NCBI GenBank assembly: GCA_016209495.1
Contig: JACQVX010000187.1
Location: 1 to 57,269, forward strand
Direction: 5' to 3'
DNA from: Planctomycetota bacterium
GTDB lineage: Bacteria > Planctomycetota > JACQVX01
Length of the DNA: 57,269 bases
Within the stretch, counting starts at the first letter, position 1, and each line of letters starts with the position of its first letter. The position numbers and the translations under genes were made by a program. Shown piece by piece: positions 433 through 44,418 of this stretch. The notes below the pieces were generated by a model. The model made no database searches. It saw only the letters and a list, made by a program, of their open reading frames with translations, and was not told where the DNA came from.

Positions 433-596
433 AGGTGCCCGACCTGTGGCGCCATCCCATCCCCGTCTCGGCGGCCCGCGACCCCTGCGGCGGGGGCGAC
501 CCTCCATCGCACGGATCCGTGTTACTCGTGGAGGCCAGCGAGCTTATAGGCAGACCCCCTTGTGGTGTCAAGACGATTCTGCTTTACTGCCGTACC

Positions 597-16972: not shown

Positions 16973-17941
16973 TTGAAGATTCACCGCGGGATCGATGGCC
17001 TGGCCCCCGGACAGTTCCGATCCCCCGTGCTCACCCTGGGGGTCTTCGACGGCGTCCATCGCGGTCATCAGCAAACCCTCCGCGCCGCCGTGACCTGGGC
17101 CCGGGAGCGTGGCGGGGAGGCCGTGGTGCTCACCTTCGACCGTCACCCCCTGGGCGTGATCCGTGGGTCGGAGCCGCCTACCATCTGCACCCTGGAGCAC
17201 CGGCTGGTGCTCATCGGCGACCTGGGCGTGGACCACTGCGTGGTCCTGCGCTTCGACGCCGCGTTGGCGGCCGTGGAGCCGGAGGACTTCGTGGAGAGGG
17301 TCTACGTGCGCGCCCTGGGCGCCCGGGGCGTGGTCATGGGCTTCGACAGCCGGTTCGGTCACAAGGGGCGCGGCGACGCGGCGCTCCTGGAGTCCCTGGG
17401 CAGGCGGGACGGTTTCGAGGTGCGCGTGGCGCGGCCGATCCAGGCGGAGGGCGGGGTGGTCTCCAGCACCGTGGTCCGGCGGGCCATCGTGCAGGGGGAC
17501 CTCGCCCGGGCCGCCTCGATGCTCGGGCGGTCCGTGGAACTCTACGGGGAGGTGGTGACGGGTGACCGCCGAGGTCGGCTGCTGGGGTTCCCCACGGCGA
17601 ATCTCGACCTGGGCCACGAGGCCCGGCCCCCCCGGGGCGTCTACGCCGCGACCGTGGGCCTGGACCAGGGGGAGTACGGGGCCGTGGTAAACATCGGGCG
17701 GCGTCCTACCTTCGAGCGGCAGGACGGGTCGGGCGCCATGCCCCCGGAAGACCTCGTGGAGGTGCACGTCCTGGACTTCGACGGGGACCTCTACGGGAGG
17801 AGCCTCCGGGTGCGATTCCTGGAGCGCCTCCGGGACGAGCGTCGCTTCGAGGGGCCCGAGGCCCTCGTGGCGCAGATCCGCCTCGACGTGGCCACCTTCC
17901 GTGTCCGGCACGGCGGCCGTCTGGCCGGAAAACCGGATTGA
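16973..17941 (+). CDS. ribF: bifunctional riboflavin kinase / FAD synthetase
   Basis: LTLGVFDGVHRGHQ at the N-terminus (FAD synthetase). The C-terminal riboflavin kinase part has GFPTANL and VHVLDFDGDLYG...RDERRF. TTG start. Confidence 0.9.
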   Translation: MKIHRGIDGLAPGQFRSPVLTLGVFDGVHRGHQQTLRAAVTWARERGGEAVVLTFDRHPLGVIRGSEPPTICTLEHRLVLIGDLGVDHCVVLRFDAALAAVEPEDFVERVYVRALGARGVVMGFDSRFGHKGRGDAALLESLGRRDGFEVRVARPIQAEGGVVSSTVVRRAIVQGDLARAASMLGRSVELYGEVVTGDRRGRLLGFPTANLDLGHEARPPRGVYAATVGLDQGEYGAVVNIGRRPTFERQDGSGAMPPEDLVEVHVLDFDGDLYGRSLRVRFLERLRDERRFEGPEALVAQIRLDVATFRVRHGGRLAGKPD

Positions 17942-17987
17942 CGGCCATGGAGGCCGGGCTACGATGGGACCCCTCCAGCCGGGACCT

Positions 17988-18063
17988 GCTCAGGTAGCTC
18001 AGTTGGTAGAGCAGGGGACTGAAAATCCCCGTGTCGCCGGTTCAACTCCGGCCCTGAGCACCA
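17988..18063 (+). tRNA. tRNA-Phe (anticodon GAA)
   Basis: GCTCAGGTAGCTCAGTTGGTAGAGCAGGGGACTGAAAATCCCCGTGTCGCCGGTTCAACTCCGGCCCTGAGCACCA. The 7-bp acceptor stem is GCTCAGG/CCTGAGC and the anticodon loop is CT-GAA-AA. It has the T-loop GGTTCAACTCC and an encoded CCA. Confidence 0.9.
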
Positions 18064-18138: not shown

Positions 18139-19749
18139 TTGCGACCCCCCCTTGCCGCCGCCCTGGCCGCATCGGTCCTCGCCCTGGCCGGCGGCGAGGC
18201 GGCGGGGCCGCCCGTATTCAGCCACCGTCGCCATTTCCAGGCCACCGGCGACGAGGGCTGCGCCCCTTGCCACGGCGCGGCGAGCCGGGGAGAGGGTCTG
18301 GGGGCGCTGACACGCCGGGCCGTGGCATCCTGCGCGGGTTGCCACGACGGGCGGACCGCCCTCCCGGTGGAGGTCCGCTCGGAGGCGCGGCGGGTGGAGG
18401 ACCCATTCCCCGGATTCCTCCACCACGACCACAGGGCCCACGACTGCGGCCGATGCCACACCCTGGACGGCGCCAGGGACCGCCATGGCGGCCCGGGCTC
18501 CCTGGCCTCCGCCTGCGGGACCTGCCATGCGGAGCACCCGGTGAGGCAGTACCCGGACGGGGCGCGGCGGTGCGGCGCCTGCCACAACTCCCGGTTCCTC
18601 CAGACCGGCGACACGGAGGGGCGGGTCTTCCTCCACACGGAGCACCTCTTCGCGCGGGGCGCCGCCACCGCCGCCGAGTGCGCCGCATGCCACGCCACCG
18701 CCGCCGAATCGGACACGGCGGGGTCCTCGCTGGCGCCCCTGGACGAAACCTCCTGCCACCGCTGCCACCGGGCCGAGGCGGGGGCCGCGGTCCAGGGGCC
18801 ATGGCCCGCCGACCCGCGTCCCTTCCACGCCCCCGATCGGACCTCCCGGTTGCCTGGATTCAGCCACCGGCAGCACCTCCGGACCCCGGGGGGCTGCCTG
18901 GCCTGCCACGTCCCCGGCGAGGACAGGCACTACGTCTACGCCCCTGCGGGCATGCCCCTCTACGCGGGCTGCGGGGGCTGCCACGCCGGATGGCTCTCGG
19001 AGGTGGACGAGCATGGGCTCGGGGGCCGCGCCTGCTCGGTCTGTCATGGTCCCGATGGCGTGATCCCCCCGACCGTGAGCCTGGGACGGGTCGCCGTGGC
19101 CGGCTCCTCCTTCGGCACCGTGGCCCACCCCTTCGACCCGGAGGCCCACTCCCTGGGCCGGCCGTGCGAGCGGTGCCACCGGAGGCCTCCCGCCTCCACC
19201 CCGTCCCGCATCCGGAACGAGCGGTTCCGGCACGACGCGCACCTCCCGGCCGCCCTCCCGCCGGACCATGGAGACGAGGCCTGCCTGGGATGCCACCGGG
19301 CAGCCGCCTCGTCGGACGCGCCCGTAGACGAGCACGGGGCGCTCCTCGCGACCTGCAAGGCCTGCCACCCGGCGGGGGAGACGCCGCCGGTCCACCGCAC
19401 GGTGGCCCGCGCCGTCGCAGCCGTGGCCTTCTCCCACGTGGACCACCGAGGGCGGCCCTGTTCGGCCTGCCACGTCCTGGACGTGGCGCGCGGGCCCGCC
19501 TACGCGCCCGGCGTCCTGGATTGCGGGGGCTGCCACCTGGGCCACGCCGCGGTGGACCTGGGTCGCAGGCGCGCCTGCATGCGCTGTCATTCGGGGCGCG
19601 ACCTATACGGGGCGAGGGAGCCGCAGCCCGCGGTGGAACTCGATCTCCCCGCCACGGTCCACGACCTTTCGGGCGAGTGCCTCCCCTGCCACGGGCCTCC
19701 CGTCCCCGCGGAGGTCCCGGTCGTGACCCGATCGGGGGCGGGGCCGTGA
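18139..19749 (+). CDS. periplasmic multiheme c-type cytochrome (17 CxxCH motifs, c7/c3-like repeats)
   Basis: Signal peptide MRPPLAAALAASVLALAGGEAAG. I count 17 CxxCH motifs in the translation. They are interleaved with F-x-H-x-x-H motifs (FSHRRH, FLHHDH, FLHTEH, FSHRQH, FRHDAH, FSHVDH) as in polymerised c7-type domains. TTG start. Confidence 0.85.
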   Translation: MRPPLAAALAASVLALAGGEAAGPPVFSHRRHFQATGDEGCAPCHGAASRGEGLGALTRRAVASCAGCHDGRTALPVEVRSEARRVEDPFPGFLHHDHRAHDCGRCHTLDGARDRHGGPGSLASACGTCHAEHPVRQYPDGARRCGACHNSRFLQTGDTEGRVFLHTEHLFARGAATAAECAACHATAAESDTAGSSLAPLDETSCHRCHRAEAGAAVQGPWPADPRPFHAPDRTSRLPGFSHRQHLRTPGGCLACHVPGEDRHYVYAPAGMPLYAGCGGCHAGWLSEVDEHGLGGRACSVCHGPDGVIPPTVSLGRVAVAGSSFGTVAHPFDPEAHSLGRPCERCHRRPPASTPSRIRNERFRHDAHLPAALPPDHGDEACLGCHRAAASSDAPVDEHGALLATCKACHPAGETPPVHRTVARAVAAVAFSHVDHRGRPCSACHVLDVARGPAYAPGVLDCGGCHLGHAAVDLGRRRACMRCHSGRDLYGAREPQPAVELDLPATVHDLSGECLPCHGPPVPAEVPVVTRSGAGP

Positions 19750-19771
19750 GCACCCGACCCGGGGGAGGGCC

Positions 19772-20773
19772 GTGAGGACCCTGGCCTGGTTCGCCGCCAC
19801 CCTTGTCGCCGGCGTGGCCCTGGTCTACGCCTTCGAGCACCTCGGCGTGGCAAGGAGCCTGGAGCTCCGTCCCTGGCGTATCTGGGGCGCCGCGGCGGCC
19901 GGCCTCGTCCTCCTCTCGCCGGTGGCGCTCTACAGCCTGCGCAAGCGCAGCACCTACTTCCTCTACCTTCATTTCCGACGCATGGCGGACTTCGACGCCC
20001 GGGTGGCGGCCGTCCGCTCCGGGGTCATGGACCTGCAGCGGGAGGTCTATAACCGGGTCCATACCCGTCACCGGCCGATCCGCCGGCTGGCTCGCGGGGT
20101 CCTCCGGGCCCACGGGCTGGGCCGGTACTTCCGCGTGGTGGTGGAGGCGAAGCCCACGGGAGAGCCCGGCGGCGGGACGGTGCCCGAGGTCCGGCTGGTG
20201 AAGCGCGACCCCATGGGGCCGCTGTCCCTCTGGCTGAAGATGCACGTCTGGCTCGGTCTCCTGGCCTTCGTCGTCATCGTCCTGCACACCGGGCTCGAGG
20301 TGCACGGCGTCCTGGCCGGGGCGGCCCTGGTCCTCTTCGCCCTGGTGACGCTCACCGGGCTGGGGGGGGCGCTCCTGTTCCGGCTCCTGCCCCCGCGCCT
20401 CACCCCCCTGGAGGGGGAGTTGCTTCCGGACGAGATGCGCCGCAAGGGGGAGATGCTCGACGCCCGCATGGCGGAGGTCTGGCATGAGGCGCCCCAGGAG
20501 GTCCGGGAGGCCGCGGGCGGACGTCTGGCCGTCCTCTCCACCCGGGAGGCCTCGCGGCGCTCGGAGGCGCTCTGGTCGCTCCGCGGCGAGGTGGAGGCTG
20601 CCGCCCGGGCCCTGGGCGTCATGCTCGTGCAGCGCGCGCGCCTGGACGCCCGGTACCGCCTGGAGCGGCGCCACGAGGTCCTGCTGCACGGGTGGCTCGC
20701 CGTGCATGTCCCCCTGGCGGCGGCCATGGCGGTGGCCGTGGCGGCCCATGCGATCTCGTTCTGGTACTATTGA
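19772..20773 (+). CDS. integral membrane protein, candidate di-heme b-type electron carrier
   Basis: About five TM helices. Two helices each carry a His pair spaced exactly 14 residues apart (MHVWLGLLAFVVIVLH and VHVPLAAAMAVAVAAH). It lies 22 nt after the cytochrome gene and 3 nt before the next gene. Confidence 0.7.
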   Translation: MRTLAWFAATLVAGVALVYAFEHLGVARSLELRPWRIWGAAAAGLVLLSPVALYSLRKRSTYFLYLHFRRMADFDARVAAVRSGVMDLQREVYNRVHTRHRPIRRLARGVLRAHGLGRYFRVVVEAKPTGEPGGGTVPEVRLVKRDPMGPLSLWLKMHVWLGLLAFVVIVLHTGLEVHGVLAGAALVLFALVTLTGLGGALLFRLLPPRLTPLEGELLPDEMRRKGEMLDARMAEVWHEAPQEVREAAGGRLAVLSTREASRRSEALWSLRGEVEAAARALGVMLVQRARLDARYRLERRHEVLLHGWLAVHVPLAAAMAVAVAAHAISFWYY

Positions 20774-20776
20774 GCC

Positions 20777-22189
20777 ATGGCCCAGGCCGTGGCTGACCTC
20801 GTCTCCCGCCTCAAGGCCGTCCCCGTCCTGGGGGACCTCACCCCCGAGGGCTTCGAGGGGCTGGCCGCCCAGTGCACCGTGCGGGACGTGGCCGAGGGGG
20901 AAATCGTGTTCCGGGAGGGCGACTACGGCTTCGAGTTCTACGTCGTCCTCGAGGGCGCCGTCCGGGTGGTGAAGACCACCGCCACCGGCGGCGACGAGGT
21001 CCTGGCGACGATCCAGGCGGACGGGTTCTTCGGGGAGATGGGCCCCATGGTGGGCCAGCCCCGGAGCGCCACGGTCGTCGCGGGGCGTGCGAGCGTCCTC
21101 CTGGAGGTGGACCACGACGGCTTCAGCGCCCTGGTGGAGAAGGTCCCCTCCTTCAAGCGCACCATGGACGAGGCCTACCTGGACCGCGCCCTGGCCTCCT
21201 ACCTCCAGGTGATCCCCCTGTTCCGGGGCGTTCCCGCCGAGCGCCTCAAGGCCCTGGCCGCCGAGGCGCGGCTGGTGAGCTTCCAGAAGGACGCGGCGGT
21301 GATCCGGGAAGGCGAGGCGGGGGACGCCTTCTACCTGATCCGGCGCGGCTTCGTGAAGGTCACGCGGGCGATGGGCGGCGTGGCCAAGGTCCTGGCCTAC
21401 CTGCGGGAAAACGGGTGGTTCGGAGAGATGGCCCTCATCGACCGCACCCCTCGCACCGCGACCGTCACGGCCCTGGGCCCCCTGGAGGTGGTCCGCATCG
21501 GCCGGGACGCCTTCGAGGGGCTCTGCGCCGGGCACCCGGAGGTGCGGCGGACCATCGAGGCGTCCATGGCGGAGCGGCGGGCCGGGGAGCAGGACCTGGA
21601 TCAGGAGGGGCGCGACGAGAAGTACGCCGTGCTGGTGGAGAAGGGGCTCATCCAGGTCAACGAGGTCCTGGCCATCGACCTGGACACATGCACGCGCTGC
21701 GGGAATTGCGAGACGAACTGCGCCATCACCCACGACGGTTACTCCAGGCTGGTCCGCAAGGGGTTTCGCGTGAAGGACACCCTCTTCCCCGCCTCCTGCT
21801 ACATGTGCCCCGACCCGGAGTGCATGAAGGGGTGCCGCTTCGGCGTCCTGGCCAGGGAACGAGACGGCTCGGTCTACTTCCGGGACCACTGCACCGGCTG
21901 CCAGGCCTGCGTGAAGGCCTGCCCCTACGGGGTCATCACCATGGCGGAGCGCGCCGCGGGAGAGGGTGGCCCGCCCCGCCACCCGGTGATCGGCCTCCTC
22001 CAGGAGGCGGCCCGGGGACTCTTCGGATGGGGCGCGGGGCCCGCGGCCGTCGAGGAGGGCGAGAAGCCCCGGCGCATGGCGGTCAAGTGCGACATGTGCA
22101 AGGGCCTGGGCATGACCGCCTGTCTCTCCAATTGTCCCACGGGGTCCATCATGCGGGTCAGCCCCCAGTCGCTGCTCGACAGGCTCTAG
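20777..22189 (+). CDS. fusion of two cyclic-nucleotide-binding domains with a four-cluster [4Fe-4S] ferredoxin domain (NrfC/DmsB-like)
   Basis: Two cNMP motifs are present (FGEMGPMVGQPRSATVVA and FGEMALIDRTPRTATVTA). They are followed by CTRCGNCETNC, CYMCPDPECMKGC, CTGCQACVKACP and CDMCKG..ACLSNCP. There is no signal or Tat motif at the N-terminus. Confidence 0.85.
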   Translation: MAQAVADLVSRLKAVPVLGDLTPEGFEGLAAQCTVRDVAEGEIVFREGDYGFEFYVVLEGAVRVVKTTATGGDEVLATIQADGFFGEMGPMVGQPRSATVVAGRASVLLEVDHDGFSALVEKVPSFKRTMDEAYLDRALASYLQVIPLFRGVPAERLKALAAEARLVSFQKDAAVIREGEAGDAFYLIRRGFVKVTRAMGGVAKVLAYLRENGWFGEMALIDRTPRTATVTALGPLEVVRIGRDAFEGLCAGHPEVRRTIEASMAERRAGEQDLDQEGRDEKYAVLVEKGLIQVNEVLAIDLDTCTRCGNCETNCAITHDGYSRLVRKGFRVKDTLFPASCYMCPDPECMKGCRFGVLARERDGSVYFRDHCTGCQACVKACPYGVITMAERAAGEGGPPRHPVIGLLQEAARGLFGWGAGPAAVEEGEKPRRMAVKCDMCKGLGMTACLSNCPTGSIMRVSPQSLLDRL

Positions 22190-22204
22190 CATGAGTCACC
22201 GGCC

Positions 22205-24061
22205 ATGACCCGCTTCGAGTTCTCCGTCCGCGCCAAGGGTCGCCCCCGCCCGGTGGAGGTGGAGGGACCGCGCGTCCGCATCGGCCGTGTGCAGGTGGAC
22301 AACGAGGTGGTGGCCGACGAGGAGACCGTGGACGCCCACCACGCGGAGCTCCGCTCGCGGGACGGGGGCTTCGTCATCGCCGACCGGGCGAGCGCCGTGG
22401 GCACCCTGGTCAACGGCCGGCCCGTGGACGGGGAGCACCCCCTGGCCGATGGGGACGTGGTCCACCTGGGGGCCTACCGCATGGCCGTGCGGCTGGCCCC
22501 GGACGGGGTCTTCCGCGCGGAACTGGAGCCGGACCCTCCCCTCTCTCTGCGCAAGCTGGCGCGGGAGCAAGGCCCCCGGCGGAGGACCGGGGGACGGCCG
22601 CCCCTGCGCTGGATCCTGGGGGGGGCGGCCCTGTGCGCGGCGGTGCTCGCCCTGGCGGCGGTCCCCCTGGCGGGGTGGCACGCGGCCTTCCTTCCGGCCC
22701 CCATCTCGCCGGCGCACCGCGACGGCCCCGGGGCCCCATCGGGCTGCGGGGCCTGCCACACGCCCTTCGGCGGGGGCTTCGCCGAGGGCTGCATGGCGTG
22801 CCACGGCCAGGTCCTGGCGGGGGGGCCCCACGGGGCGGCCGCCTTCCCGGCGGCGGGGGCCAACGAGTGCAGCGGATGCCACGCGGAGCACGAGCGCATC
22901 GAGGGCGGCCTCCTGGGGGCTGGGACCCTGCCCGGGACCTGCCGAGGCGCGGGCTGCCACGAGGAGGCGCACCCGGCGCCGCGGCCCGTGGCCACGGCCC
23001 TCGTCCCCGTGCCAGGGAACCGCCCCCCCTTCTCCCACGCGGACCACGCCCGGGGCCCGAGCGCCCCCGGCTGCGCCGGGTGCCACGCCCCGGGTCCTGC
23101 GGCAGGGGGAGACTGGCGGGACCACCGACCGATGGACTACGAGGGTTGCGTCCGCTGCCACGACTCCTGGGCCGTCGCCGATCACGGCTTCCCGAGGTAC
23201 TGCGGCGACTGCCACGCCCGGCCAGCGGAGCCGGAACTGACGCGGGTCCGGCGCGAGGTGGCGGTGCCCGCCGCCTTCGCCTTCGGAGGCTTCCGCCACG
23301 ACCTCCCGGTGGGGGCCTGCGGGGGCTGCCACCTCCGCCCGGACGTGGAACTGGAGAGCCGCTTCCGTGGGACCCCGTTTCGCCACGCGACCCACCTGGT
23401 GGCGGGGCCCCGCGGGGTGGGGGCCGGGGGGACCGCCGAGTGCGCCTCATGCCACGGGGAGGTGGCCCGCTCGACCGAGCTGCCCTCGCGGGCCTCGCCG
23501 GGGGCCGAGGCCCCCATGACCTGGGACCCGTCGAGTTGCAAGGGTTGCCACCTCGAGTCCCCCCACATCACCCGCTTCGACGTGGTGGCTCGCCCCTCGG
23601 TTCGATTCGGCCACGACGGGCACGCAGGGGCGGGCCTGGACTGCGCCGCCTGCCATGCCCCGGGCGAGGAACCCGACCGGCCGACCCTCCTCGCCGGCGT
23701 GGCCGACTGCACCGCCTGTCACGCGGGCCATGCCCGCACGCCGCGTCTGGAGGCCTGCGCCCGTTGCCACGCTGGGGCGGATCTCTACGCCCGCGGTGTC
23801 CCGGTGCGGAGGTTGGAGGTCCCGGAGGGCTTCGACCACGCCACCTGGGACCACCGGCGCTCCCCCTGCGAGGCCTGTCACCCGGGGGCCTCCGCCGCGA
23901 CCACCATCGAGGACGTCCCGACGGCGAGGGCCGACTCGGAGGCCTGTACCGGCTGCCACGAACCGGCCCACCTCGCCGGCCCCTGTCTGGACTGCCACGC
24001 CTACCATGAGGCGGCGACCGGGGCCGGCGTCTCCGCCCCTCGGGAGCCCGGGGGCCACTGA
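22205..24061 (+). CDS. FHA-like domain / single TM / multiheme c-type cytochrome fusion (15 CxxCH + 1 CxxxxCH)
   Basis: The N-terminal ~100 aa look FHA-like (VRIGR...HHAEL...FVIADRASAVGTLVNGRPV...GDVVHLG). The TM is WILGGAALCAAVLALAAVPLAGW. Then I count 15 CxxCH motifs plus CRGAGCH, with FSHADH/FRHATH/FGHDGH-type motifs. Confidence 0.85.
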   Translation: MTRFEFSVRAKGRPRPVEVEGPRVRIGRVQVDNEVVADEETVDAHHAELRSRDGGFVIADRASAVGTLVNGRPVDGEHPLADGDVVHLGAYRMAVRLAPDGVFRAELEPDPPLSLRKLAREQGPRRRTGGRPPLRWILGGAALCAAVLALAAVPLAGWHAAFLPAPISPAHRDGPGAPSGCGACHTPFGGGFAEGCMACHGQVLAGGPHGAAAFPAAGANECSGCHAEHERIEGGLLGAGTLPGTCRGAGCHEEAHPAPRPVATALVPVPGNRPPFSHADHARGPSAPGCAGCHAPGPAAGGDWRDHRPMDYEGCVRCHDSWAVADHGFPRYCGDCHARPAEPELTRVRREVAVPAAFAFGGFRHDLPVGACGGCHLRPDVELESRFRGTPFRHATHLVAGPRGVGAGGTAECASCHGEVARSTELPSRASPGAEAPMTWDPSSCKGCHLESPHITRFDVVARPSVRFGHDGHAGAGLDCAACHAPGEEPDRPTLLAGVADCTACHAGHARTPRLEACARCHAGADLYARGVPVRRLEVPEGFDHATWDHRRSPCEACHPGASAATTIEDVPTARADSEACTGCHEPAHLAGPCLDCHAYHEAATGAGVSAPREPGGH

Positions 24062-24137: not shown

Positions 24138-26120
24138 TCAGCGCGGGCCCAGCAGGCCCCCCAGGACGCGGACCAGCTCCGCCGGGTCCACCGGCTTCGC
24201 CAGGTAGCCGGCCGCGCCGCGGCGAGGGGCCTCCAGGGCCAGGAACGGGTCGTGGAACTGGGTCATGAGCACCACGGCCACCGAGGGGTGCCGCGAGCGG
24301 ACCCGGCCGAGCAGGTCCAGGCCGCCCATGTCGGGCATCCGGATGTCCGCCAGGACCACCCCGTAGGGGCGCTCCCCCAGGGCTCGGAGGGCCTCGGCCC
24401 CCGAGGCCACGGCGCGCACCTCGCAGCCCAGCTCCGGGACGCCGCCCAGCATCCGGACCAGAAGGGACCGGACCTCCGCGTCGTCGTCCACCACCAGGAC
24501 GGAGCGCTCCTCGTCCGCCGGGCGGGGGCGGAGCATGCCGAGGAGGGTGCCCTGGACCGCCTCCACGGCGAAGGGCTTGAAGTGCACCGGGCGGCCGGTG
24601 GCCTCGAGGGACCGCACCACCTGCTCGTCCGCCACCCGGCCGGTGATGAAGACCACCCGCCGCGCCGCCTCGGGCCGTTCCCGCTCCAGCCTGCGGTAGA
24701 GGTCGTGGCCGCTCCCGTCCGGGAGGGCCACGTCCACGATCAGGGCGTCGAAGGCGCTCGAGTCCAGCGCGGACAGGGCGGCGGCCACCCCCGGGACCGC
24801 GTGGGCGGCGCAGCCCCACTCCTTCAGGTAGCGGACCATGAGCTCCCGGATATCCGCCTCGTCCTCCACCACCAGGACCCGGTGGCCGGCCAGGACCCCC
24901 GCCTCCTCGGGGCGTCCCACCGGTTCCGGCGCCTCCCGCAGGGGAAGCTCCAGCACGAAGAGGGTCCCCCCGCCGGGCCGCCGTTCGGCCCAGATCCGCC
25001 CCCCGTGGTCCTCGAGGATCCGGCGGCAGATAGGGAGCCCCAGCCCGGTCCCCTTCCCCGGGGGCTTGGTGGTGTAGAAGGGCTCGAAGACGCGCTCCAG
25101 GGCGTCCTCCGGGATGCCGCAGCCCGAGTCCTCCACCTCGACCCGCAGGCCGACCCCGGGGGAGCGTCGGGTCCGTACCGCGACGCGTCGCCTCGGCTGG
25201 CCGTCCACCGCGTCGGCCGCGTTCTTCACCAGGTTGACCAGCACCTGCTGCATCTGGAAGGGGTCCAGGGCGGTGGCGGGCAGGTCCGGTTCCAGGTCGC
25301 GCACCAGCTCCAGGCCGTAGCCCGCCAGGAGCTGTTCCTGCTCGTCCAGGGTCCGCTCCACCAGGGCGTTGATCCGGGTGGGGACCGGGGCGGGGGTGCG
25401 CTTGCGGGTGAAGAGGAGCAGCTCCTGCACCACCCGCTGGGCGCGGGAGGCCGCCCCGTGGATCCGTCCCAGGTCGCGGCGCATGGCCTCGTCCTCCACC
25501 GTGGCCATGGCCAGGTCCGCGTACCCCAGGATCACCGTGAGGGGGTTGTTCAGCTCGTGGGCGATGCCCGCCACCACGTTCCCCAGGGTGGCCAGCTTCT
25601 CCATCTTGACCAGCTCCCCCTGGGCCGCTCGCAGTTCGCGGACCGTGCCCTCCAGCTCCCGGGAGAGGGACTGGGCCCGCTCCTTCTCCTCCCGCTCGCC
25701 TCGCAGGAGCCCCTCGTACTTGGCGTGCATCCGGGCCTCGGCGGTCAGGTCCCGGAGGTGAACCAGGGCCCCCGCCGGGGCGCCCGAACCGTCGAAGAGC
25801 GGCAGGGCGCGGCTCACGAGGGAGACGGGGTTGCCCTCCCGATCGCTCCCGGAGACCTCCCGCAGCTCCACCGCACGGTCCGAGGGGGCGGCGCGCGAGC
25901 GCAGCTCCTCCTCGGCCCAGCGGTCGAGGACCAGGACCTCCCGGGCGCGGGGGCGCGCCAGGAGCTCCGGACCCGTGGCCCGCGAGAGGGGCAGCAGGGC
26001 CCGGTTGTGGGCCACGATGCGAAGCTCCCGGTCCACGATGTAGACCGGGTCCGAGACGGCCTCCAGGAGCCCCGGGTTGTCCAGGAAAGGTTGCAAGGAG
26101 TGGTGGCCGCGGGCCGGCAT
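24138..26120 (-). CDS. hybrid sensor histidine kinase (PAS - HisKA - HATPase - REC - REC)
   Basis: H-box GIAHELNNPLT, and the HATPase N/G boxes (LVNLVKNAADA, DSGCGIP, GKGTGLGL). Two receiver domains are present (VLVVEDEADIRE...DVALPDGSG and VLVVDDDAEVR...DIRMPDMGG). The ATG overlaps the upstream TGA by 1 nt. Confidence 0.9.
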   Translation of the reverse strand: MPARGHHSLQPFLDNPGLLEAVSDPVYIVDRELRIVAHNRALLPLSRATGPELLARPRAREVLVLDRWAEEELRSRAAPSDRAVELREVSGSDREGNPVSLVSRALPLFDGSGAPAGALVHLRDLTAEARMHAKYEGLLRGEREEKERAQSLSRELEGTVRELRAAQGELVKMEKLATLGNVVAGIAHELNNPLTVILGYADLAMATVEDEAMRRDLGRIHGAASRAQRVVQELLLFTRKRTPAPVPTRINALVERTLDEQEQLLAGYGLELVRDLEPDLPATALDPFQMQQVLVNLVKNAADAVDGQPRRRVAVRTRRSPGVGLRVEVEDSGCGIPEDALERVFEPFYTTKPPGKGTGLGLPICRRILEDHGGRIWAERRPGGGTLFVLELPLREAPEPVGRPEEAGVLAGHRVLVVEDEADIRELMVRYLKEWGCAAHAVPGVAAALSALDSSAFDALIVDVALPDGSGHDLYRRLERERPEAARRVVFITGRVADEQVVRSLEATGRPVHFKPFAVEAVQGTLLGMLRPRPADEERSVLVVDDDAEVRSLLVRMLGGVPELGCEVRAVASGAEALRALGERPYGVVLADIRMPDMGGLDLLGRVRSRHPSVAVVLMTQFHDPFLALEAPRRGAAGYLAKPVDPAELVRVLGGLLGPR

Positions 26121-26602
26121 CAGCGCTCGTCATCCAGGAAGGCGAAGTACTCGGTCTCGAACTCGCGGAAGGCCATGGGCTGGCCGCAGCGAGGGCAGGG
26201 GGCTTCGGGGGCCACCCCCCGACGAAGCTCCTCCCGGTGGGCCTCCACATGGATGAGCACCCCCTCCCGCGCGCGGCATGGGGCGCAGGCGTAGGGGCCG
26301 TAGAAGGAGGCGATGCGTCCCCGGGGGATGAAGTTGGAGATCTGGTTGGCCTGTTCGACGATGATCTGCGGGCAATCCAGGAAGTCCAGGTCCACCGACG
26401 GCGGAACCGCCCGGAAGGTGTTGATCCAGACACGGATCCCCGCCGAGTTGATGCGCGTGACCCCCGCCAGGTGGACGCGCACCCGCCCCCCGAGCGCCCC
26501 CAGGCCCTCCGCCAGGAGGGTGTCCTCGTCGATGGGGCCGCTCAGGTAGAGGTCCACGCCGTCGGGTCCATCCCGGCGCTCGACGCGGAGCGCCTCGTTC
26601 AT
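26120..26602 (-). CDS. STAS-like domain protein with C-terminal CxxC..CxxC zinc-ribbon
   Basis: ATG 26602 overlaps the stop of the upstream sensor gene (ATGA). LYLSGPIDEDT...VRVHLAGVTRINSAGIRVWIN resembles anti-sigma-antagonist/STAS topology. The C-terminus has CAPC...CPRC. The remainder of track ORF 26120..27178 is a shadow. Confidence 0.6.
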   Translation of the reverse strand: MNEALRVERRDGPDGVDLYLSGPIDEDTLLAEGLGALGGRVRVHLAGVTRINSAGIRVWINTFRAVPPSVDLDFLDCPQIIVEQANQISNFIPRGRIASFYGPYACAPCRAREGVLIHVEAHREELRRGVAPEAPCPRCGQPMAFREFETEYFAFLDDER

Positions 26603-29600
26603 GCGAGGCCCCCGTGGCGCAAGTGGAATGCGGTGGGCTGCCGGCGGTAGTCTCGCAGGCTGAGGCTGGCGTCCAGGACCGCGAGCACCTCGGTCGAGGC
26701 CCCGGGCTCCACGTCGATGGCCAGCACCGAGGCGGCCTGGTAGACGCGGTGGAGCCCCAGCCCGGCCCCCCCAGCCTTTTCCTCGAGCTCGGCCTTCCCG
26801 CGGGACAAGGTCCTCCCAAGATAGTCCAGCACCGTCTCGGGGCGCAAGCTGCCGAAGGGGTCGCGCACGTCCACCAGGATGCGCCCCGGCGCCACGGCGC
26901 ACCGGAGACGCGCGGCCTCGCCCGGTTCCAGGTGCACGGCCTCCCGGCGGTCCAGGTGGGCGTGGCGCGGCGCGCCGGCCGGGTCGACCGGGGCGTTGAA
27001 GACCGCGTTGGTGATGAGCTCGTCGGCCACCGTCTGGACCTGGGAGCGCAGGAACTCGTCCACCCCCGCGGCCAGGAGGAACTCGTCCAGCCCCTGCACC
27101 GCCCCGGCGCGCTCGCGGCTGCCCCGGATCTCCGCCTCGTGGAGTCGCTCGCCGCCCGGGAGCCACGGTCCCCACCACCCGCGGACGGGCCCCAGGCAGG
27201 CCTGGAGGGTGGCCCGCAGGTCCTGGAGGGCCAGCGAGGAGGGAAGGAACGTGGCGTGGGTCGAGGAGGCCGCGCGAAGGGCGTCCAGGTGGCCCGCCAG
27301 GCTGCCCTGGGCCACCAGGACCCGGAGCGAGGCGCTCGCCGCTCGGGCCGCCTCTCCGAGGACCTCCTCCCGATCGGCGATGACCGCGTGGAACGCGCCG
27401 GTGTCCAGGAGGCGGGGGACCTCGCGGGCCTCGACCTCCTCGGACCGCAGCGCCAGCCCATCCAGGTAGAGCCTACCCGCGCCCAGGAGCCCCCCCACGT
27501 CCCCCACCACCAGCGCCCGCCGTTCCGGCATCTCGCGCACCTTCCCGACCACCACCGTCACGTCGTCCTGGGGCGGCGCCCCCCGGGCGTGCGCGGCCGC
27601 CTCCCCCACCAGGCCCTCCAGTATGGGGAGCGCCCCTTCCCGGGCGCGGCGCCGCACCGCCTCCACCAGGCGTCGTTTTCCGAAGGGCTCGCCGTCCGGA
27701 CCCGGGCGCTCCGGGACGCCGTCCGAGTACCATACCACCACGTCCCCGGGGGCGAGCGAGACCTCCTGCTCGCGGTAGTGCGCCTCCGGCCCCTCGCCCA
27801 GCCGCACGCCCCGGGCACGCAGGAACTCCACCTCGCCCCCCTGGGCGCGCAGGAGCACCGGGAAGCAATGCCCCGCGTTCGCGTAGCGCAGGGCCCCGGT
27901 GTGGAGGTCCAGGGTCGAGGCGAAGAAGGTCATGCAGAGCCGGCGGTCGGCCAGCTCGGCGATGACCCGGTTGAGGCGCTCCAGGAGGGAGGCGGGGGAG
28001 AGGAGGTCCCTCGGGGGCGTCCCCGCCGTCTGGACTAGGTCCTGCAGCTCGCCCAGGGTGCGCACGAAGCTGTCCGCCGCCGCGGCGATGAGGGCCGAGG
28101 GGACGCCGTGGCCGGTCACGTCCCCGATGAGGACCGCGAGCCTCTCCCGCCGGGGGTCCATCAGGTAGCCGTACCAGTCCCCGCCCACCTCCGTGGCCGC
28201 GGCGAAGTGGCCCGCCAGGTCCATGACGCGCGTGCTGGGGTGCGAGCGGGGGAGCAGGGTGCGTTGCACCGCCTCCGCGGTCCGGAGTTCGGCCTGCATG
28301 CGCGTCTTCTCGATCATCTCCCCCAGGAGCCGGATGTTCTCCACCGCCACGGCGCAGGCCCCGGCGATGATCTCGGCGAACTCCCGGTCCGTCCGGCCGA
28401 AGGGGAGGCCGTCCTCCCGCTCGTGGCACGCCAGGACCCCGAGGACGCACCCCTCGTAGACGAAGGGCACGCAGAGGATGCGCCGCGCGTCCTCGAACAG
28501 GACCTCCATTCGGCCCTGGCCCCCCTCGGCCGGGACCGGTTCCTCGAGCCCCTCCGCCGCGCGATAGCCCGCGGGGCTGGGGGCATTGAGCAGGACCGAG
28601 CGGGTGCGCCCGGCGACGAAGCCCACGACGCCCTCGCCCTGCGAGAGCGGCTCGTCCCCGGGCTCCTCGCCCTCGGGCCAGCCCAAGGCCGCCACGACCC
28701 GGAGGACGCCGCCTTCCAGCACCCCGAAGGCCAGGCGACGCACGCGCAGCACCTCGTGCACGGACCGGAGGGCGCGCGCCGCCAGGGGTTCCAGCTCCAG
28801 CATGGAGCCCAGCTCCCGCGCCGTCTCGTGGATGGCCTCCACCTCGCGGTCGCGCGCCAGGAGGGCGCCCCCCATCCGATTGAAGGAGCCCGCCAGGACC
28901 GCCATCTCTCCGCCGCCCCCCTCGGGGAGCCGGTGGCGCAAGTTCCCGACGGCGAACTCCCGGGTCGCCTCCACCAGCCGGTAGACGGGCCGCACGATGC
29001 GCGCCGCCAGGAGGAGTCCCGCGGCCACGGCCGCCAGGACCGTGGCGACGCCCAGGGCCAGCGTGACCCACGCCATCTTGCGCGCCGCGTGATAGGCGTC
29101 GTCCTCCGGCTCCACCACCAGCACGCCCCAGTCCACGAGCGGGTCCCGGACGCGCGCGTATCCCACCAGGAGCCGCTCGCCCCCGGGGCCCGTCACGCCG
29201 GTCGTCCCCGGGATGCGTTCCTCCCGGAGCTGCCGGCGCAGCCCCTCATCGGCCCAGGGCAGGGGTTCCCGGGCCATGGCCCTCTCCTGGTCCGGGTGGG
29301 CGAGAAGGCGCCCCTCGGCGTCCAGGAGCGCGGCGTAGCCCCGGCGGCGGAACCCCGCCGAGCCCAGCGCGCCCATGAGGGGGGCCAGGTCCAGGGCCGC
29401 CGCCAGGACTGCGCCCTCGCCCAGCGGGCGCGCGTAGGGCAGGAGCAGTCTCTCCAGGCGAGGACAGGCCTGTACCTCGCCCAGGCGCTCCCCGCCGCCC
29501 GCCAGGACCTCGCGCGCGGGGACGGCCTCCAGGAAGCGGGCCAGTTCCTCCGGGGAGGGCCCGTCCTCGCCCTGGCGCACGCCCACGGCCACGACGCGCC

Positions 29601-29913: not shown

Positions 29914-29999
29914 TCGTGGCGCCCAGTCTCCGCCCCGCGCCCCCGCCAGGCAAGTCCCCGAAAACCGGATTTCCTTTGACCCATCCCGCCAGCCTATGG

Positions 30000-30020
30000 T
30001 CACATGTGAGTCACAGGTGA
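30000..30020. promoter_or_regulatory. two adjacent TCACAnGTGA palindromic boxes in the divergent intergenic region (candidate operator)
   Basis: TCACATGTGA (a perfect 10-bp palindrome, 30000-30009), then G, then TCACAGGTGA (30011-30020). They sit in the 162-nt region between the PP2C sensor gene and the Kelch/HYR lipoprotein gene. Confidence 0.3.
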
Positions 30021-30075
30021 AAGCGTGGCGGCCTTTGGGGGGACAGGGGGCGGCCGCGCTGGAAGAGGGGGGCCG

Positions 30076-33453: not shown

Positions 33454-33464
33454 GGGTGTAGCAG

Positions 33465-39632: not shown

Positions 39633-39671
39633 GGGGAGTGACCGGAGTATACTGCCGCGTCCGGAGGGCAC

Positions 39672-44391: not shown

Positions 44392-44418
44392 TTGACCCCA
44401 CGCCCCCCCGAGCATAAT
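44392..44418 (+). promoter_or_regulatory. possible sigma70-like promoter (TTGACC ... CATAAT)
   Basis: TTGACC at 44392-44397 and CATAAT at 44413-44418. The spacer is only 15 nt, which is short. If this is real, the RimK-like gene starts at TTG 44431 rather than TTG 44392. Confidence 0.2.

What the first reader, a model, noticed from the sequence alone, without database searches (positions are those of the whole stretch)
18139..24061. Four-gene operon that looks like a signal-gated transmembrane multiheme electron conduit
Four co-directional genes have gaps of 22, 3 and 15 nt. (1) A secreted 17-heme c7/c3-like cytochrome. (2) A ~5-TM protein with two helices each carrying His-x13-His, the bis-His di-heme b geometry. 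(3) A signal-less protein fusing two cNMP-binding domains to a four-cluster NrfC/DmsB-type [4Fe-4S] module. (4) A cytoplasmic FHA-like domain joined by one TM to a 16-heme periplasmic cytochrome. Together these provide redox cofactors on the periplasmic side, within the membrane and on the cytoplasmic side. Two cytoplasmic regulatory input domains (cyclic nucleotide, FHA) are physically fused to redox subunits. Known quinol-linked modules (NrfCD, PsrBC, CbcL, ImcH, ActABC types) put the FeS subunit in the periplasm and carry no such sensory domains. I do not know of a characterised complex with this composition.
Basis: partly seen in the sequence, partly recalled or inferred. Interest (0 to 1): 0.82.

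Follow-up and report, generated by a model that had tools for sequence, protein, structure and literature searches.

The report
Membrane-spanning FeS / heme-b / multiheme-c electron wire
These four genes encode a chain of iron-sulfur clusters and hemes that most likely carries electrons across the inner membrane; it belongs to a widespread gene-cluster family that has been noticed three times in the literature but never tested in the laboratory.

Summary
Four co-directional genes (gaps of 22, 3 and 15 nt) encode:
- g1, a secreted 17-heme cytochrome c
- g2, a 5-TM protein with W-x3-H-x13-H on TM3 and TM5
- g3, a signal-less protein with two cNMP-binding domains and four [4Fe-4S] motifs
- g4, an FHA domain, one TM helix and a 16-heme cytochrome c

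The g2-g3-g4 trio is strongly syntenic. In species-representative genomes, 60 of 71 loci have a g2-like gene right after g3, and 50 of 51 then have a multiheme cytochrome. The full four-gene order recurs in distant metagenome contigs.

The claim of no precedent is wrong. The membrane protein is the 'IMP' family of the PCC3/PCC4 clusters (He et al. 2017). The trio matches PtdF-PtdE-PtdG (Elbon et al. 2024) and the FHA-nonaheme cluster of Ferrigenium (2026 preprint). All three reports are computational.

- **Supported:** a cytoplasm-to-periplasm redox wire. cNMP control is plausible because the phosphate-binding cassettes are invariant.
- **Not supported:** FHA as a phosphothreonine input, because its key Ser and Asn residues are lost.
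- **New inference:** relatives carry two unrelated NAD(P)H flavoprotein modules, which points to NAD(P)H rather than quinol as the cytoplasmic partner.

Verdict: a new variant of a known but uncharacterised kind. Interest is moderate.

The parts
17988..18063 (+). tRNA-Phe (GAA) 76 nt upstream of g1. The only sigma-70-like site in the region (17938-17965) precedes it. It marks the upstream boundary, and read-through into the operon is possible.
18139..19749 (+). g1: secreted 536-aa cytochrome c with 17 CxxCH (c7/c3-like). It has 44 His and only 3 Met, so bis-His ligation is likely. It is a paralogue of the periplasmic part of g4.
18139..18204 (+). g1 N-terminal signal-like segment (MRPPLAAALAASVLALAGGEAA)
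   Evidence: read directly from the sequence
19772..20773 (+). g2: 333-aa, 5-TM inner-membrane protein, the putative di-heme b subunit. It belongs to the IMP family of PCC3/PCC4 clusters and is PtdF-like.
20222..20290 (+). g2 TM3 with W154-x3-H158-x13-H172. H158 and H172 are invariant in the 88-sequence alignment.
20309..20386 (+). g2 TM4 with T195-G196-L-G-G199, the [ST]GxxG motif. G196 and G199 are invariant.
20687..20761 (+). g2 TM5 with W308-x3-H312-x13-H326. H312 is invariant and H326 is conserved in at least 90%.
20777..22189 (+). g3: 470-aa cytoplasmic protein with a tandem CNB and a four-cluster ferredoxin module (PtdE-like)
20864..21151 (+). g3 CNB-A, with phosphate-binding cassette F85-G-E...P-R-S-A
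21218..21544 (+). g3 CNB-B, with phosphate-binding cassette F215-G-E...P-R-T-A
21659..22177 (+). g3 FeS module. Cys 305/308/311/315, 341/344/349/353, 372/375/378/382 and 438/441/449/453 make four [4Fe-4S] motifs. It is HycB/HydN/AegA-like.
22205..24061 (+). g4: 618-aa protein with an FHA-like domain, one TM helix and a 16-heme cytochrome c (PtdG/NHC-like)
22274..22471 (+). g4 cytoplasmic FHA-like domain. G-R and His are kept. The pThr-binding Ser is Asp and the Asn is Val.
22613..22669 (+). g4 single TM anchor (residues 137-155)
22745..23998 (+). g4 periplasmic heme domain with 15 CxxCH plus C246-x4-C251-H. It has 41 His and 5 Met.

Best explanation
The operon encodes one inner-membrane redox module. 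My proposed path is as follows.

1. g3 sits in the cytoplasm. It carries four [4Fe-4S] clusters behind a PKA-R-like tandem cNMP-binding unit.
2. g3 docks on the large Arg-rich cytoplasmic loops of g2.
3. g2 is a 5-TM protein that binds two b-type hemes between TM3 and TM5. H158/H312 lie near the cytoplasmic face and H172/H326 near the periplasmic face.
4. The outer b heme hands electrons to the membrane-anchored 16-heme cytochrome g4.
5. g4 passes them to the soluble 17-heme cytochrome g1, which feeds a still unknown periplasmic or extracellular partner.

I judge the flow to run outward, from the NAD(P)H or ferredoxin pool to the periplasm, without obligatory use of quinone. That would make it a bacterial counterpart of NOX/FRE-type electron export. 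cNMP binding to g3 would switch a path that otherwise wastes reducing power and membrane potential. The FHA-like domain of g4 is most likely a docking or scaffold element, not a phosphothreonine reader.

**Shown here:** gene content, motifs, ligand invariance and synteny.
**Inferred:** heme b binding, physical assembly, direction of flow, the electron donor and cNMP gating.
For: **Motifs and domains**

**g3**
- All 16 cluster Cys and both phosphate-binding cassettes are invariant in 18 homologues of 33-55% identity.
- The best solved relatives of the FeS part are cytoplasmic or electron-transfer four-cluster proteins: HycB4 (7qv7_B) and ArrB. NCBIfam gives partial matches to AegA and HydN.
- The N-terminal half of the model matches tandem-CNB PKA-R and PKG structures at E about 1e-25.

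**g2**
- The family has 5415 cluster representatives at E<=1e-3.
- H158, H172 and H312 are invariant; W154, W308 and H326 are conserved in at least 90%; G196 and G199 are invariant (88 sequences).
- Of 60 syntenic homologues, 58 keep at least two H-x13-H.
- The only recurrent Pfam matches among the 88 members are sub-threshold: DUF4405 (36 members), Ferric_reduct (25) and Ni_hydr_CYTB (21).
- Lys+Arg counts place loops 56-152 and 204-309 in the cytoplasm, and loop 173-184 and the C-terminus outside. The two His pairs therefore sit at matching membrane depths.

**Synteny**
- 60 of 71 genome loci have a g2-like gene directly after g3, and 50 of 51 of those then have a multiheme c.
- The window's order (multiheme, g2, g3, FHA-multiheme) recurs in L091, L094 and L104. 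It also recurs with inserted genes in L090 and L095-L098.
- A 52%-identical relative, L001, has g2-g3-FHA-cytochrome.

**NAD(P)H link**
- 70 of the 80 best genome homologues of g3 are about 800 aa. The one I scanned, Fontimonas thermophila P0065, carries an N-terminal Pyr_redox_2/3 flavoprotein domain, and the precomputed Pfam lists of the 800-aa hits agree.
- The window-like clade instead encodes a non-homologous FHA + FAD_binding_6 + NAD_binding_1 + Fer2 reductase next to the module.
- So two unrelated NAD(P)H flavoproteins have been recruited to the same core.

**Thermodynamics (established principle)**
- Electron export from NAD(P)H (-320 mV) to bis-His c hemes is downhill and is helped by the membrane potential.
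Against: - No cofactor binding, complex formation or activity has been measured for any member of the family.
- Foldseek found no solved structure similar to the g2 model (best E 0.34), although the model's pLDDT is 82.6. The PDB sequence search was also empty. The di-heme b assignment therefore rests on motifs and sub-threshold profile matches.
- This window encodes no flavoprotein. tblastn with the FHA-FNR and 2xFHA proteins found nothing, and Pfam scans of the neighbouring genes showed none. The donor to g3 here is unknown.
- Two of the three weakly matched families (Ni_hydr_CYTB, DUF4405) are typically quinone-reactive, so a quinone site cannot be excluded.
- No terminal acceptor, porin or outer-membrane component is encoded nearby.
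- Transcription as one unit is inferred only from the short gaps and the absence of internal signals.
Confidence: 0.55

Rival explanations
1. Quinone-linked module, as in the He et al. 2017 model and similar to CbcL or CymA. g2 is a quinone-reactive di-heme cytochrome b that exchanges electrons between the menaquinone/ubiquinone pool and the periplasmic multiheme cytochromes g4 and g1. In this reading g3 is an accessory or regulatory subunit, or a second branch, and not the main electron entry point.
For: - The sub-threshold Pfam matches include Ni_hydr_CYTB and DUF4405, which in my recollection are mostly quinone-reactive cytochromes b.
- He et al. proposed exactly this role for the IMP family (PMC5566968).
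- PCC4 subgroup I lacks the Fe-S gene, according to that paper.
- The window itself encodes no NAD(P)H flavoprotein.
Against: - g3 is almost always adjacent to g2: 60 of 71 loci.
- It carries a full four-cluster wire whose 16 Cys are invariant.
- In most relatives it is fused to, or sits next to, an NAD(P)H flavoprotein of two unrelated types. That arrangement is hard to explain if quinol were the only partner.
- No NrfD-, NarI- or cytochrome-b-type Pfam model reaches threshold on g2.
Confidence: 0.22
2. Inward electron import, working like the Tmc, Hmc or DsrMK complexes of sulfate reducers. Low-potential periplasmic electrons collected by the c3/c7-like cytochromes g1 and g4 cross the membrane through g2 to the FeS clusters of g3. 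They then reduce a cytoplasmic acceptor such as ferredoxin or NAD(P)+ via a flavoprotein.
For: - The cofactor layout (periplasmic multiheme c, membrane di-heme b, cytoplasmic FeS) is the same as in DsrMKJOP, Hmc and Tmc (PMC10861901).
- g1 and g4 look like bis-His c3/c7-type hemes, which are typically low-potential.
- g1 gives a weak NCBIfam match to HmcA, far below the cut-off.
- Members occur in Fe(II) oxidisers, where an inward route has been hypothesised.
Against: - Moving electrons inward works against the membrane potential. Reaching FeS or NAD(P)+ at about -320 mV or lower needs a very low-potential periplasmic donor. No hydrogenase or formate dehydrogenase is encoded nearby.
- The cytoplasmic subunit is a ferredoxin-type protein. 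It is not an HdrD-like catalytic subunit with a CCG domain.
- Many hosts are aerobic heterotroph lineages such as Lysobacterales, Fontimonas and Oceanibacterium.
Confidence: 0.12
3. Transmembrane redox sensor, not a bulk conduit. The heme chain reports the periplasmic or extracellular redox state to cytoplasmic FeS, CNB and FHA domains, which then act on signalling partners.
For: - Two signalling-type domains (CNB, FHA) are fused to the redox subunits.
- Sister loci carry extra canonical FHA proteins and have Ser/Thr kinase genes nearby.
- In L008, GAF-HD-cNMP and REC-HD genes lie next to the module.
- A hybrid histidine kinase is convergent with g4 in this window.
Against: - Thirty-three c hemes, two b hemes and four clusters is far more wiring than any known redox sensor uses.
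- Fusion to NAD(P)H flavoproteins in most relatives points to substrate-level electron flow.
- No output domain (HTH, kinase or cyclase) is fused to any subunit.
Confidence: 0.07

Closest known systems
PCC4 gene cluster and the related 'MHC + IMP + redox protein' clusters of He et al. 2017 (Front Microbiol 8:1584, PMC5566968)
   Same: - g2 has every feature used to define the IMP family: five TM helices, W-x3-H-x13-H on TM3 and TM5, and [ST]GxxG on TM4.
- An Fe-S (PF13247) gene lies next to the IMP gene.
- Multiheme cytochromes c are encoded in the same cluster.
- A role in moving electrons across the inner membrane was already proposed.
- The family is uncharacterised experimentally.
   Different: - The window has no porin and no 4-, 5- or 10-heme trio.
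- It has 17- and 16-heme cytochromes instead.
- Gene order is IMP then FeS, not FeS then IMP.
- The published model links the IMP to the quinone pool. The flavoprotein fusions found here point to NAD(P)H.
ptdABCDEFG of marine Alphaproteobacteria (Elbon et al., bioRxiv 10.1101/2023.11.21.568154)
   Same: - PtdE (cNMP-binding plus 4Fe-4S), PtdF ('ferric reductase-like' membrane protein) and PtdG (decaheme) correspond to g3, g2 and g4.
- The authors state that the function is completely unknown.
   Different: - The window has no PtdA (pentaheme), PtdB (porin), PtdC (FAD/NAD(P) oxidoreductase) or PtdD (tetraheme).
- g3 is only 33-39% identical to the proteobacterial homologues.
- The gene order and heme numbers differ.
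FHA-nonaheme 'NHC' cluster of Ferrigenium straubiae (bioRxiv 10.64898/2026.01.22.701106, section 6.3.2)
   Same: - An FHA domain, one TM helix and a multiheme c sit next to a 5-TM protein and a [4Fe-4S] protein.
- None of the three has a signal peptide.
- The function is unknown.
   Different: - Nine hemes against sixteen.
- That paper found 'no redox motifs' in the 5-TM protein. Here the four His are invariant across the family.
- The neighbourhood differs: nirK in Ferrigenium, and tRNA-Phe and a histidine kinase here.
DsrMKJOP, HmcABCDEF and TmcABCD transmembrane complexes of sulfate reducers (PMC10861901)
   Same: - It works like them in layout: a periplasmic or membrane-anchored cytochrome c, a membrane di-heme b with His/His ligation, and a cytoplasmic FeS subunit.
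- HmcA is also a 16-heme cytochrome (my own knowledge).
   Different: - It is not a member of these families.
- Their cytoplasmic subunit is HdrD-like, with a CCG-motif non-cubane cluster that reduces DsrC trisulfide.
- Their cytochrome b is NarI/HdrE-like and quinone-reactive.
- They have no cNMP or FHA domains.
Ferric-reductase-domain proteins: NOX, FRE, STEAP and MsrQ with Fre (my own knowledge; the Zhang et al. 2013 FRD definition as quoted in PMC5566968)
   Same: - Two b hemes held by His pairs on TM3 and TM5 with about 13-residue spacing.
- A cytoplasmic NAD(P)H flavoprotein acts as the donor.
- Electrons are exported across the membrane without quinone.
   Different: - Five TM helices, not six.
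- Ferric_reduct scores 15.5 bits against a cut-off of 28.
- Foldseek finds no match to solved NOX or STEAP structures.
- An FeS wire and a cNMP switch are inserted between the flavin and the hemes.
- The acceptor is a multiheme cytochrome, not O2 or Fe(III).
Geobacter inner-membrane cytochromes CbcL, CbcBA and ImcH (my own knowledge)
   Same: A di-heme b module combined with a periplasmic multiheme c at the inner membrane, feeding periplasmic cytochromes.
   Different: - Those are quinol oxidases with no cytoplasmic FeS subunit.
- They have no sensory domains.
- No significant sequence match was seen.

Membership tests
IMP family of PCC3/PCC4 clusters (He et al. 2017) | Five predicted TM helices | tested here: met
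   Hydropathy gives five segments. The AF2 model has helices at 2-25, 34-57, 151-173, 180-205 and 273-332.
IMP family of PCC3/PCC4 clusters (He et al. 2017) | W-x3-H-x13-H on both TM3 and TM5 | tested here: met
   W154..H158..H172 and W308..H312..H326. These residues are invariant or conserved in at least 90% of 88 family members.
IMP family of PCC3/PCC4 clusters (He et al. 2017) | SGxxG motif on TM4 | tested here: met
   T195-G-L-G-G199. G196 and G199 are invariant. Ser is replaced by Thr.
PCC4 / ptdABCDEFG cluster | Fe-S (PF13247) protein with a cNMP-binding domain encoded next to the IMP gene | tested here: met
   g3 scores 38.4 bits on Fer4_11 against a cut-off of 26.2, and E 6e-43 on cNMP_binding. 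It lies 3 nt from g2.
PCC4 / ptdABCDEFG cluster | Membrane-associated multiheme cytochrome (decaheme PtdG) following the IMP and FeS genes | tested here: met
   g4 follows g3. It is homologous to the FHA-decaheme of L001 (36.6% identity, E 2e-52). It has 16 heme motifs, not 10.
PCC4 / ptdABCDEFG cluster | Porin plus penta- and tetraheme cytochromes (PtdA, PtdB, PtdD) in the cluster | tested here: not met
   The flanks are peptide deformylase/ribF-like ORFs and tRNA-Phe upstream, and a convergent hybrid kinase downstream. No porin or further cytochrome appears in the Pfam scans of neighbouring genes.
PCC4 / ptdABCDEFG cluster | [quoted passage not shown] | tested here: not met
   g3 has no Pyr_redox domain. 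There is no FNR-like or Pyr_redox gene in the window.
Ferric reductase domain (FRD: NOX/FRE/STEAP/MsrQ) | Match to PF01794 at its gathering threshold | tested here: not met
   15.5 bits against a cut-off of 28. Of 88 relatives, 25 match only below threshold, with a best E of 4e-4.
Ferric reductase domain (FRD: NOX/FRE/STEAP/MsrQ) | Structural similarity to solved FRD proteins | tested here: not met
   Foldseek of the g2 model (pLDDT 82.6) against the PDB gave a best E of 0.34, with no NOX or STEAP hit.
Ferric reductase domain (FRD: NOX/FRE/STEAP/MsrQ) | Two His pairs on TM3 and TM5 able to ligate two stacked b hemes | tested here: met
   H158/H172 and H312/H326 sit at matching depths. Heme binding itself cannot be tested with these tools.
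NrfC/DmsB/HycB-type four-cluster ferredoxin | Four Cys groups that bind four [4Fe-4S] clusters | tested here: met
   Sixteen Cys in four motifs, all invariant. PDB sequence hits are HycB4 (7qv7_B, E 2e-11, covering residues 292-465) and ArrB.
NrfC/DmsB/HycB-type four-cluster ferredoxin | Periplasmic location through a Tat signal or a Tat partner, as in the NrfC, PsrB and DmsB branch | tested here: not met
   The N-terminus has no twin-arginine or hydrophobic segment, and it is fused to cytoplasmic-type CNB domains. In this respect it resembles the cytoplasmic HycB, HydN and AegA proteins.
Canonical phosphothreonine-binding FHA domain | Match to PF00498 above threshold | tested here: met
   47.4 bits against a cut-off of 20.7.
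Canonical phosphothreonine-binding FHA domain | Conserved pThr-contact residues: G-R, S-x-x-H, and the Asn of SxNGT | tested here: not met
   In alignments to GarA, G-R and His are kept, but Ser is Asp and Asn is Val in g4. In 49 cytochrome-fused FHA domains the Ser is mostly Ala, Pro or Leu, and the Asn column is a gap in 41. The FHA domains of the neighbouring FNR and 2xFHA proteins in L090 keep these residues, except one Asn that is His.
Functional cNMP-binding domain (PKA-R, PKG or CAP type) | Phosphate-binding cassette G-E ... R-[ST/A]-A | tested here: met
   FGEMGPMVGQPRSA and FGEMALIDRTPRTA. G, E, R and A are invariant or nearly so in both domains across 18 homologues. There is a tandem-CNB fold match at E 1e-25. 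Ligand binding was not tested.
DsrMK / Tmc / Hmc transmembrane complexes | HdrD-like cytoplasmic subunit with a CCG motif and a NarI/HdrE-type cytochrome b | tested here: not met
   No CCG, HdrD or NarI-type family appears among the Pfam or NCBIfam matches of g3 or g2.

The most novel reading that the evidence does not exclude
The g2 family is a structurally new class of 5-TM di-heme b proteins with no solved relative. Together with the cNMP-gated four-cluster protein, it would form a quinone-independent electron-export wire from NAD(P)H or ferredoxin to the periplasm. This would be a prokaryotic NOX-like system, switched by a second messenger. It is present in at least several hundred species-representative genomes, including many aerobic heterotrophs not known for extracellular electron transfer. 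In the window's clade it feeds an unusually long relay of 33 c-type hemes.
Probability: 0.35. Interest if true: 0.8.

Novelty: new variant of a known kind. Interest (0 to 1): 0.55.

Why it matters
How electrons cross the inner membrane is the least understood step of extracellular electron transfer outside Shewanella and Geobacter.

This module family is widespread. The membrane subunit alone has about 5400 clusters at 50% identity.

The family occurs in Fe(II) oxidisers, nitrite oxidisers, bacteria of marine oxygen-deficient zones and ordinary aerobic heterotrophs. No member has been studied biochemically in the literature I could search.

If the NAD(P)H-linked, cNMP-gated reading is right, it would be:
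- a route from the cytoplasm to the periplasm that bypasses quinone
- an example of second-messenger control acting directly on an electron-transfer protein

The analysis also gives concrete experimental handles: four His residues, 16 Cys residues, two phosphate-binding cassettes, and cultured hosts such as Fontimonas thermophila, Oceanibacterium hippocampi and Stagnimonas aquatica.

Tried and rejected
- **PDB sequence search with the g2 profile:** no meaningful hit.
- **Foldseek of the g2 AF2 model against the PDB:** nothing below E 0.34. I therefore could not confirm, and do not claim, membership of the FRD or cytochrome b folds.
- **Word-indexed homologue searches:** g2 gave only 4 relatives and g4 only 2. 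The exhaustive profile search was needed to see the g2 family.
- **Metagenome scan with a g2 alignment:** The scan with a g3 alignment found no relative closer than the contig already known as L001 (= L092). The window's own lineage was not among the best 80 GTDB species-representative hits, where the best identity was 39%.
- **NAD(P)H flavoprotein, 2xFHA protein or extra cytochromes elsewhere in the window:** tblastn found none, and Pfam scans of 20 neighbouring ORFs showed none.
- **Internal promoters or terminators:** none found. The consensus scan is weak evidence at 75% GC.
- **Canonical pThr-FHA signalling for g4:** considered and rejected on the residue evidence.
- **Periplasmic NrfC/PsrB-like placement of g3:** considered and rejected, because it has no Tat signal and is fused to CNB domains.
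- **Follow-up literature:** searches for work on ptd or PCC4 found no experimental characterisation.
- **Source organism:** I did not determine its taxonomy.

Full report
**1. Observation**

The window is about 75% G+C, so long ORFs appear in every frame. Third-position GC of 0.90-0.95 singles out the four + frames as coding.

- g1 (536 aa) has 17 CxxCH, using all 34 of its Cys. Shuffling the protein gives a mean of 0.17 motifs and a maximum of 3.
- g4 (618 aa) has 15 CxxCH plus one CxxxxCH. It has a Pfam FHA domain at residues 24-89 and a single hydrophobic helix at 137-155.
- g2 (333 aa) has five hydrophobic helices, no Cys, and two W-x3-H-x13-H motifs.
- g3 (470 aa) has two cNMP_binding domains (E 6e-43) and 16 Cys in four [4Fe-4S]-type motifs. 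It has no signal sequence.

A tRNA-Phe lies 76 nt upstream. The only sigma-70-like site in the region lies in front of that tRNA. No terminator-like site lies inside the four genes. A hybrid histidine kinase converges on g4.

**2. The genes form a conserved module**

The g3 architecture is common: more than 1000 hits at E<=1e-10 among the candidates scored. It comes in two sizes.
- An approximately 470-aa form, like g3.
- An approximately 800-aa form. The one I scanned (Fontimonas thermophila P0065) has an N-terminal Pyr_redox_2/3 flavoprotein domain ahead of the CNB and FeS parts. The precomputed Pfam lists for the other 800-aa hits agree.

In the best 80 loci:
- 70 homologues are of the long form.
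- 60 of the 71 loci with enough downstream DNA have a g2-like gene directly after g3.
- 50 of the 51 with room beyond that have a multiheme cytochrome next. This is usually a roughly 570-aa decaheme with an FHA-like N-terminus.

The hosts are mostly Gamma-, Alpha- and Betaproteobacteria and Nitrospinota.

The window's own lineage is distant from all of these. The best identity is 39% in genomes, with metagenome fragments at 61% and 52%.

The 52% relative (L001) has g2-like, g3-like and FHA-decaheme genes in the window's order, with an LCCL protein in place of g1. The 61% fragment (L089) is followed by an FHA protein.

More distant high-GC contigs reproduce the full four-gene order of multiheme, g2, g3 and FHA-multiheme. 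These are L091, L094 and L104. In L091 the upstream cytochrome is homologous to g1 (26% identity, E 3e-14). L090 and L095-L098 have the same set with two extra genes inserted.

**3. The membrane protein g2**

A profile search of 1.84 billion representatives found 5415 family members at E<=1e-3. In an 88-sequence alignment with about 25% mean identity:
- H158, H172, H312, G196, G199, P207 and W308 are invariant.
- W154, H326 and P314 are conserved in at least 90%.
- 58 of 60 syntenic homologues keep at least two H-x13-H motifs.

No Pfam model reaches threshold. Across the 88 members the only recurrent matches are sub-threshold: DUF4405 (36), Ferric_reduct (25) and Ni_hydr_CYTB (21). The next family is matched by only 3 members. 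To my knowledge those three families share Pfam's two-heme cytochrome b clan.

Lys+Arg counts are 21 and 19 in loops 56-152 and 204-309. They are 0 in loop 173-184 and at the C-terminus. This places the two large loops in the cytoplasm. H158 and H312 then lie about six to seven residues in from the cytoplasmic face, and H172 and H326 lie at the periplasmic end. Two helices each carrying H-x13-H is the classic signature of two stacked bis-His b hemes, as in cytochrome b of the bc1 complex and in NOX (established knowledge).

Against this, the AF2 model (pLDDT 82.6) has no Foldseek match in the PDB (best E 0.34). The profile has no PDB sequence match either. I therefore call g2 a probable di-heme b protein of an unsolved fold, not a member of the FRD family.

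**4. The cytoplasmic protein g3**

All 16 cluster Cys are invariant in 18 homologues. The best solved relatives of residues 292-465 are HycB4 of the hydrogen-dependent CO2 reductase and ArrB. NCBIfam gives partial matches to AegA, HydN, ArrB and DmsB. The protein has no Tat signal and is fused to CNB domains, so it is cytoplasmic like HycB, HydN and AegA, not periplasmic like NrfC or PsrB.

Both phosphate-binding cassettes (FGEMGPMVGQPRSA and FGEMALIDRTPRTA) are canonical. Their G, E, R and A residues are invariant or nearly so. The modelled N-terminal half matches the tandem CNBs of PKA-R and PKG at E about 1e-25. Nucleotide binding is thus well supported by sequence. Which nucleotide binds, and what it does, is inference.

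**5. The FHA domain of g4**

Pfam FHA is above threshold. However, alignment to GarA shows that the phosphate-binding Ser is Asp and the SxNGT Asn is Val. In 49 cytochrome-fused FHA domains:
- the Ser column is mostly Ala, Pro or Leu
- the Asn column is a gap in 41
- G-R and His are retained

In contrast, the FHA domains on the neighbouring flavoprotein and 2xFHA proteins of L090 keep the canonical residues, apart from one Asn that is His. I conclude that the g4 FHA domain is more likely a docking module than a phosphothreonine sensor. The wider clade may still use FHA-pThr interactions for assembly. Ser/Thr kinase genes lie next to L090 and L091, which may be coincidence.

**6. The electron partner and the direction of flow**

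Two unrelated NAD(P)H flavoprotein modules accompany the core.
- Pyr_redox_2/3 is fused to g3 in the long form. That form makes up 70 of the 80 best genome hits by length. The domain was confirmed by Pfam for P0065 and appears in the precomputed lists for the others.
- In the window-like clade there is a separate FHA + FAD_binding_6 + NAD_binding_1 + Fer2 reductase.

Independent recruitment of two NAD(P)H flavoproteins argues that NAD(P)(H) is the cytoplasmic redox partner of the FeS wire.

Export of electrons from NAD(P)H to bis-His c hemes is downhill and is aided by the membrane potential. Import toward FeS or NAD(P)+ is opposed by both. I therefore favour outward flow. That flow is wasteful, which makes an allosteric cNMP switch sensible.

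This window itself encodes no flavoprotein, so its donor is unknown. It could be ferredoxin or a reductase encoded elsewhere. No terminal acceptor or outer-membrane component is nearby.

g1 and g4 have 44 and 41 His but only 3 and 5 Met. This fits bis-His, c3/c7-type hemes.

**7. Comparison with what is known**

- He et al. 2017 (PMC5566968) defined an inner-membrane protein family in their PCC3 and PCC4 clusters. They also found it in porin-less 'MHC + IMP + redox protein' clusters. The defining features are five TM helices, W-x3-H-x13-H on TM3 and TM5, and SGxxG on TM4. They noted an adjacent PF13247 Fe-S gene. They proposed a quinone-reactive di-heme b that moves electrons across the inner membrane. 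g2 meets all three motif criteria.
- Elbon et al. (bioRxiv 10.1101/2023.11.21.568154) named ptdABCDEFG. PtdE is a cNMP-binding plus 4Fe-4S protein. PtdF is a ferric-reductase-like membrane protein. PtdG is a decaheme. They called the function completely unknown.
- A 2026 preprint on Ferrigenium straubiae (10.64898/2026.01.22.701106) describes an FHA-TM-nonaheme cytochrome next to a 5-TM protein and a [4Fe-4S] protein. The function is again unknown. The authors report no redox motif in the 5-TM protein.
- I found no experimental follow-up.
- Characterised complexes with the same three-compartment cofactor layout do exist: DsrMKJOP, Hmc and Tmc (PMC10861901). Their subunits belong to other families.

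The window's operon lacks the porin, the 4- and 5-heme cytochromes and the flavoprotein of PCC4/Ptd. It has the IMP gene before the FeS gene. It carries 16- and 17-heme cytochromes. It is therefore a variant of that kind, not a plain member.

**8. Verdict**

- A transmembrane FeS, heme b and multiheme c module is very likely.
- cNMP control is plausible.
- FHA signalling through g4 is unlikely.
- The claim of no precedent is wrong at the level of comparative genomics.

New points from this analysis:
- the NAD(P)H link, through two unrelated flavoprotein modules
- the invariance of the cNMP cassettes
- the degenerate state of the cytochrome-fused FHA domains
- the size of the g2 family and its lack of any solved structural relative
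- a distinct clade with 15-17-heme cytochromes, to which this window belongs

Interest is moderate (0.55). The family is widespread, biologically relevant and untested, but it is not a new category.

Noticed in passing
window 17938-18063: tRNA-Phe (GAA) at 17988-18063, with the region's only sigma-70-like promoter match (TTGACG-16-TACGAT) just upstream. The cytochrome operon starts 76 nt after the tRNA, so read-through from the tRNA promoter is possible.
   Followed up: partly
window 24138-26120 (-): Hybrid histidine kinase (PAS_4, HisKA, HATPase_c and two receiver domains), convergent with g4 and 76 nt from its stop codon. It could regulate the operon or be unrelated.
   Followed up: no
L090:3703-6609, L095:3272-6544, L097:4082-6928: Sister loci insert two genes between the 17-heme cytochrome and the g2-like gene. 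One is an FHA + FAD_binding_6 + NAD_binding_1 + Fer2 reductase. The other is a protein with two canonical FHA domains. Neither is present in this window.
   Followed up: yes
L090:1-101 and L091:7618-9858: Ser/Thr protein kinase (Pkinase) genes lie beside two of the window-like loci that also carry canonical FHA proteins. This may be a phospho-dependent assembly or control layer, or just chance in kinase-rich genomes.
   Followed up: no
L008:3972-7932: Directly upstream of a Nitrospinota-type module sit a REC-HD protein and a GAF-HD-cNMP_binding protein. This suggests a local cyclic-nucleotide signalling link.
   Followed up: no
L007:13119-18400 (Fontimonas thermophila): Downstream of the trio lie three genes: a 677-aa HbpS-like lipoprotein, a 612-aa protein with no Pfam match that may be an outer-membrane barrel, and a cytochrome c of more than 1200 aa with LVIVD repeats. 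The same roughly 1270-aa decaheme recurs upstream of g3 in Burkholderiales and Usitatibacter loci, where the g2 gene was outside the fetched flank.
   Followed up: partly
window 18860-22192 (-) and 26599-35163 (-): Very long antisense ORFs of 1110 and 2854 aa overlap real genes. They are artefacts of the 75% G+C content. Codon-position GC identifies the true frames.
   Followed up: yes
window 30025-33453 (+): A 1142-aa protein with DUF4382, Kelch propeller and HYR domains. It has internal 150-nt and 234-nt tandem repeats and a C-terminal ACGCCC/ACGACC hexanucleotide repeat at 33359-33445.
   Followed up: no
window 435-1388 (+): A protein with a DisA-type diadenylate cyclase (DAC) domain, so the organism probably makes c-di-AMP. 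No adenylate or guanylate cyclase was seen among the ORFs scanned.
   Followed up: no
window 38310-39677 (-) and 44392-47155 (+): A cytochrome P450 gene, and a pair of RimK-like ATP-grasp (RLAN + RimK) and GCS2 glutamate-cysteine ligase genes. Both are unrelated to the finding.
   Followed up: no
L002:6995-7858 and L003:5971-7902: In the FHA-less clade of about 37% identity, a secreted 287-aa di-heme cytochrome c precedes the cNMP-FeS gene. It is duplicated in L003. The anchored cytochrome in this clade has only 5-6 hemes.
   Followed up: partly
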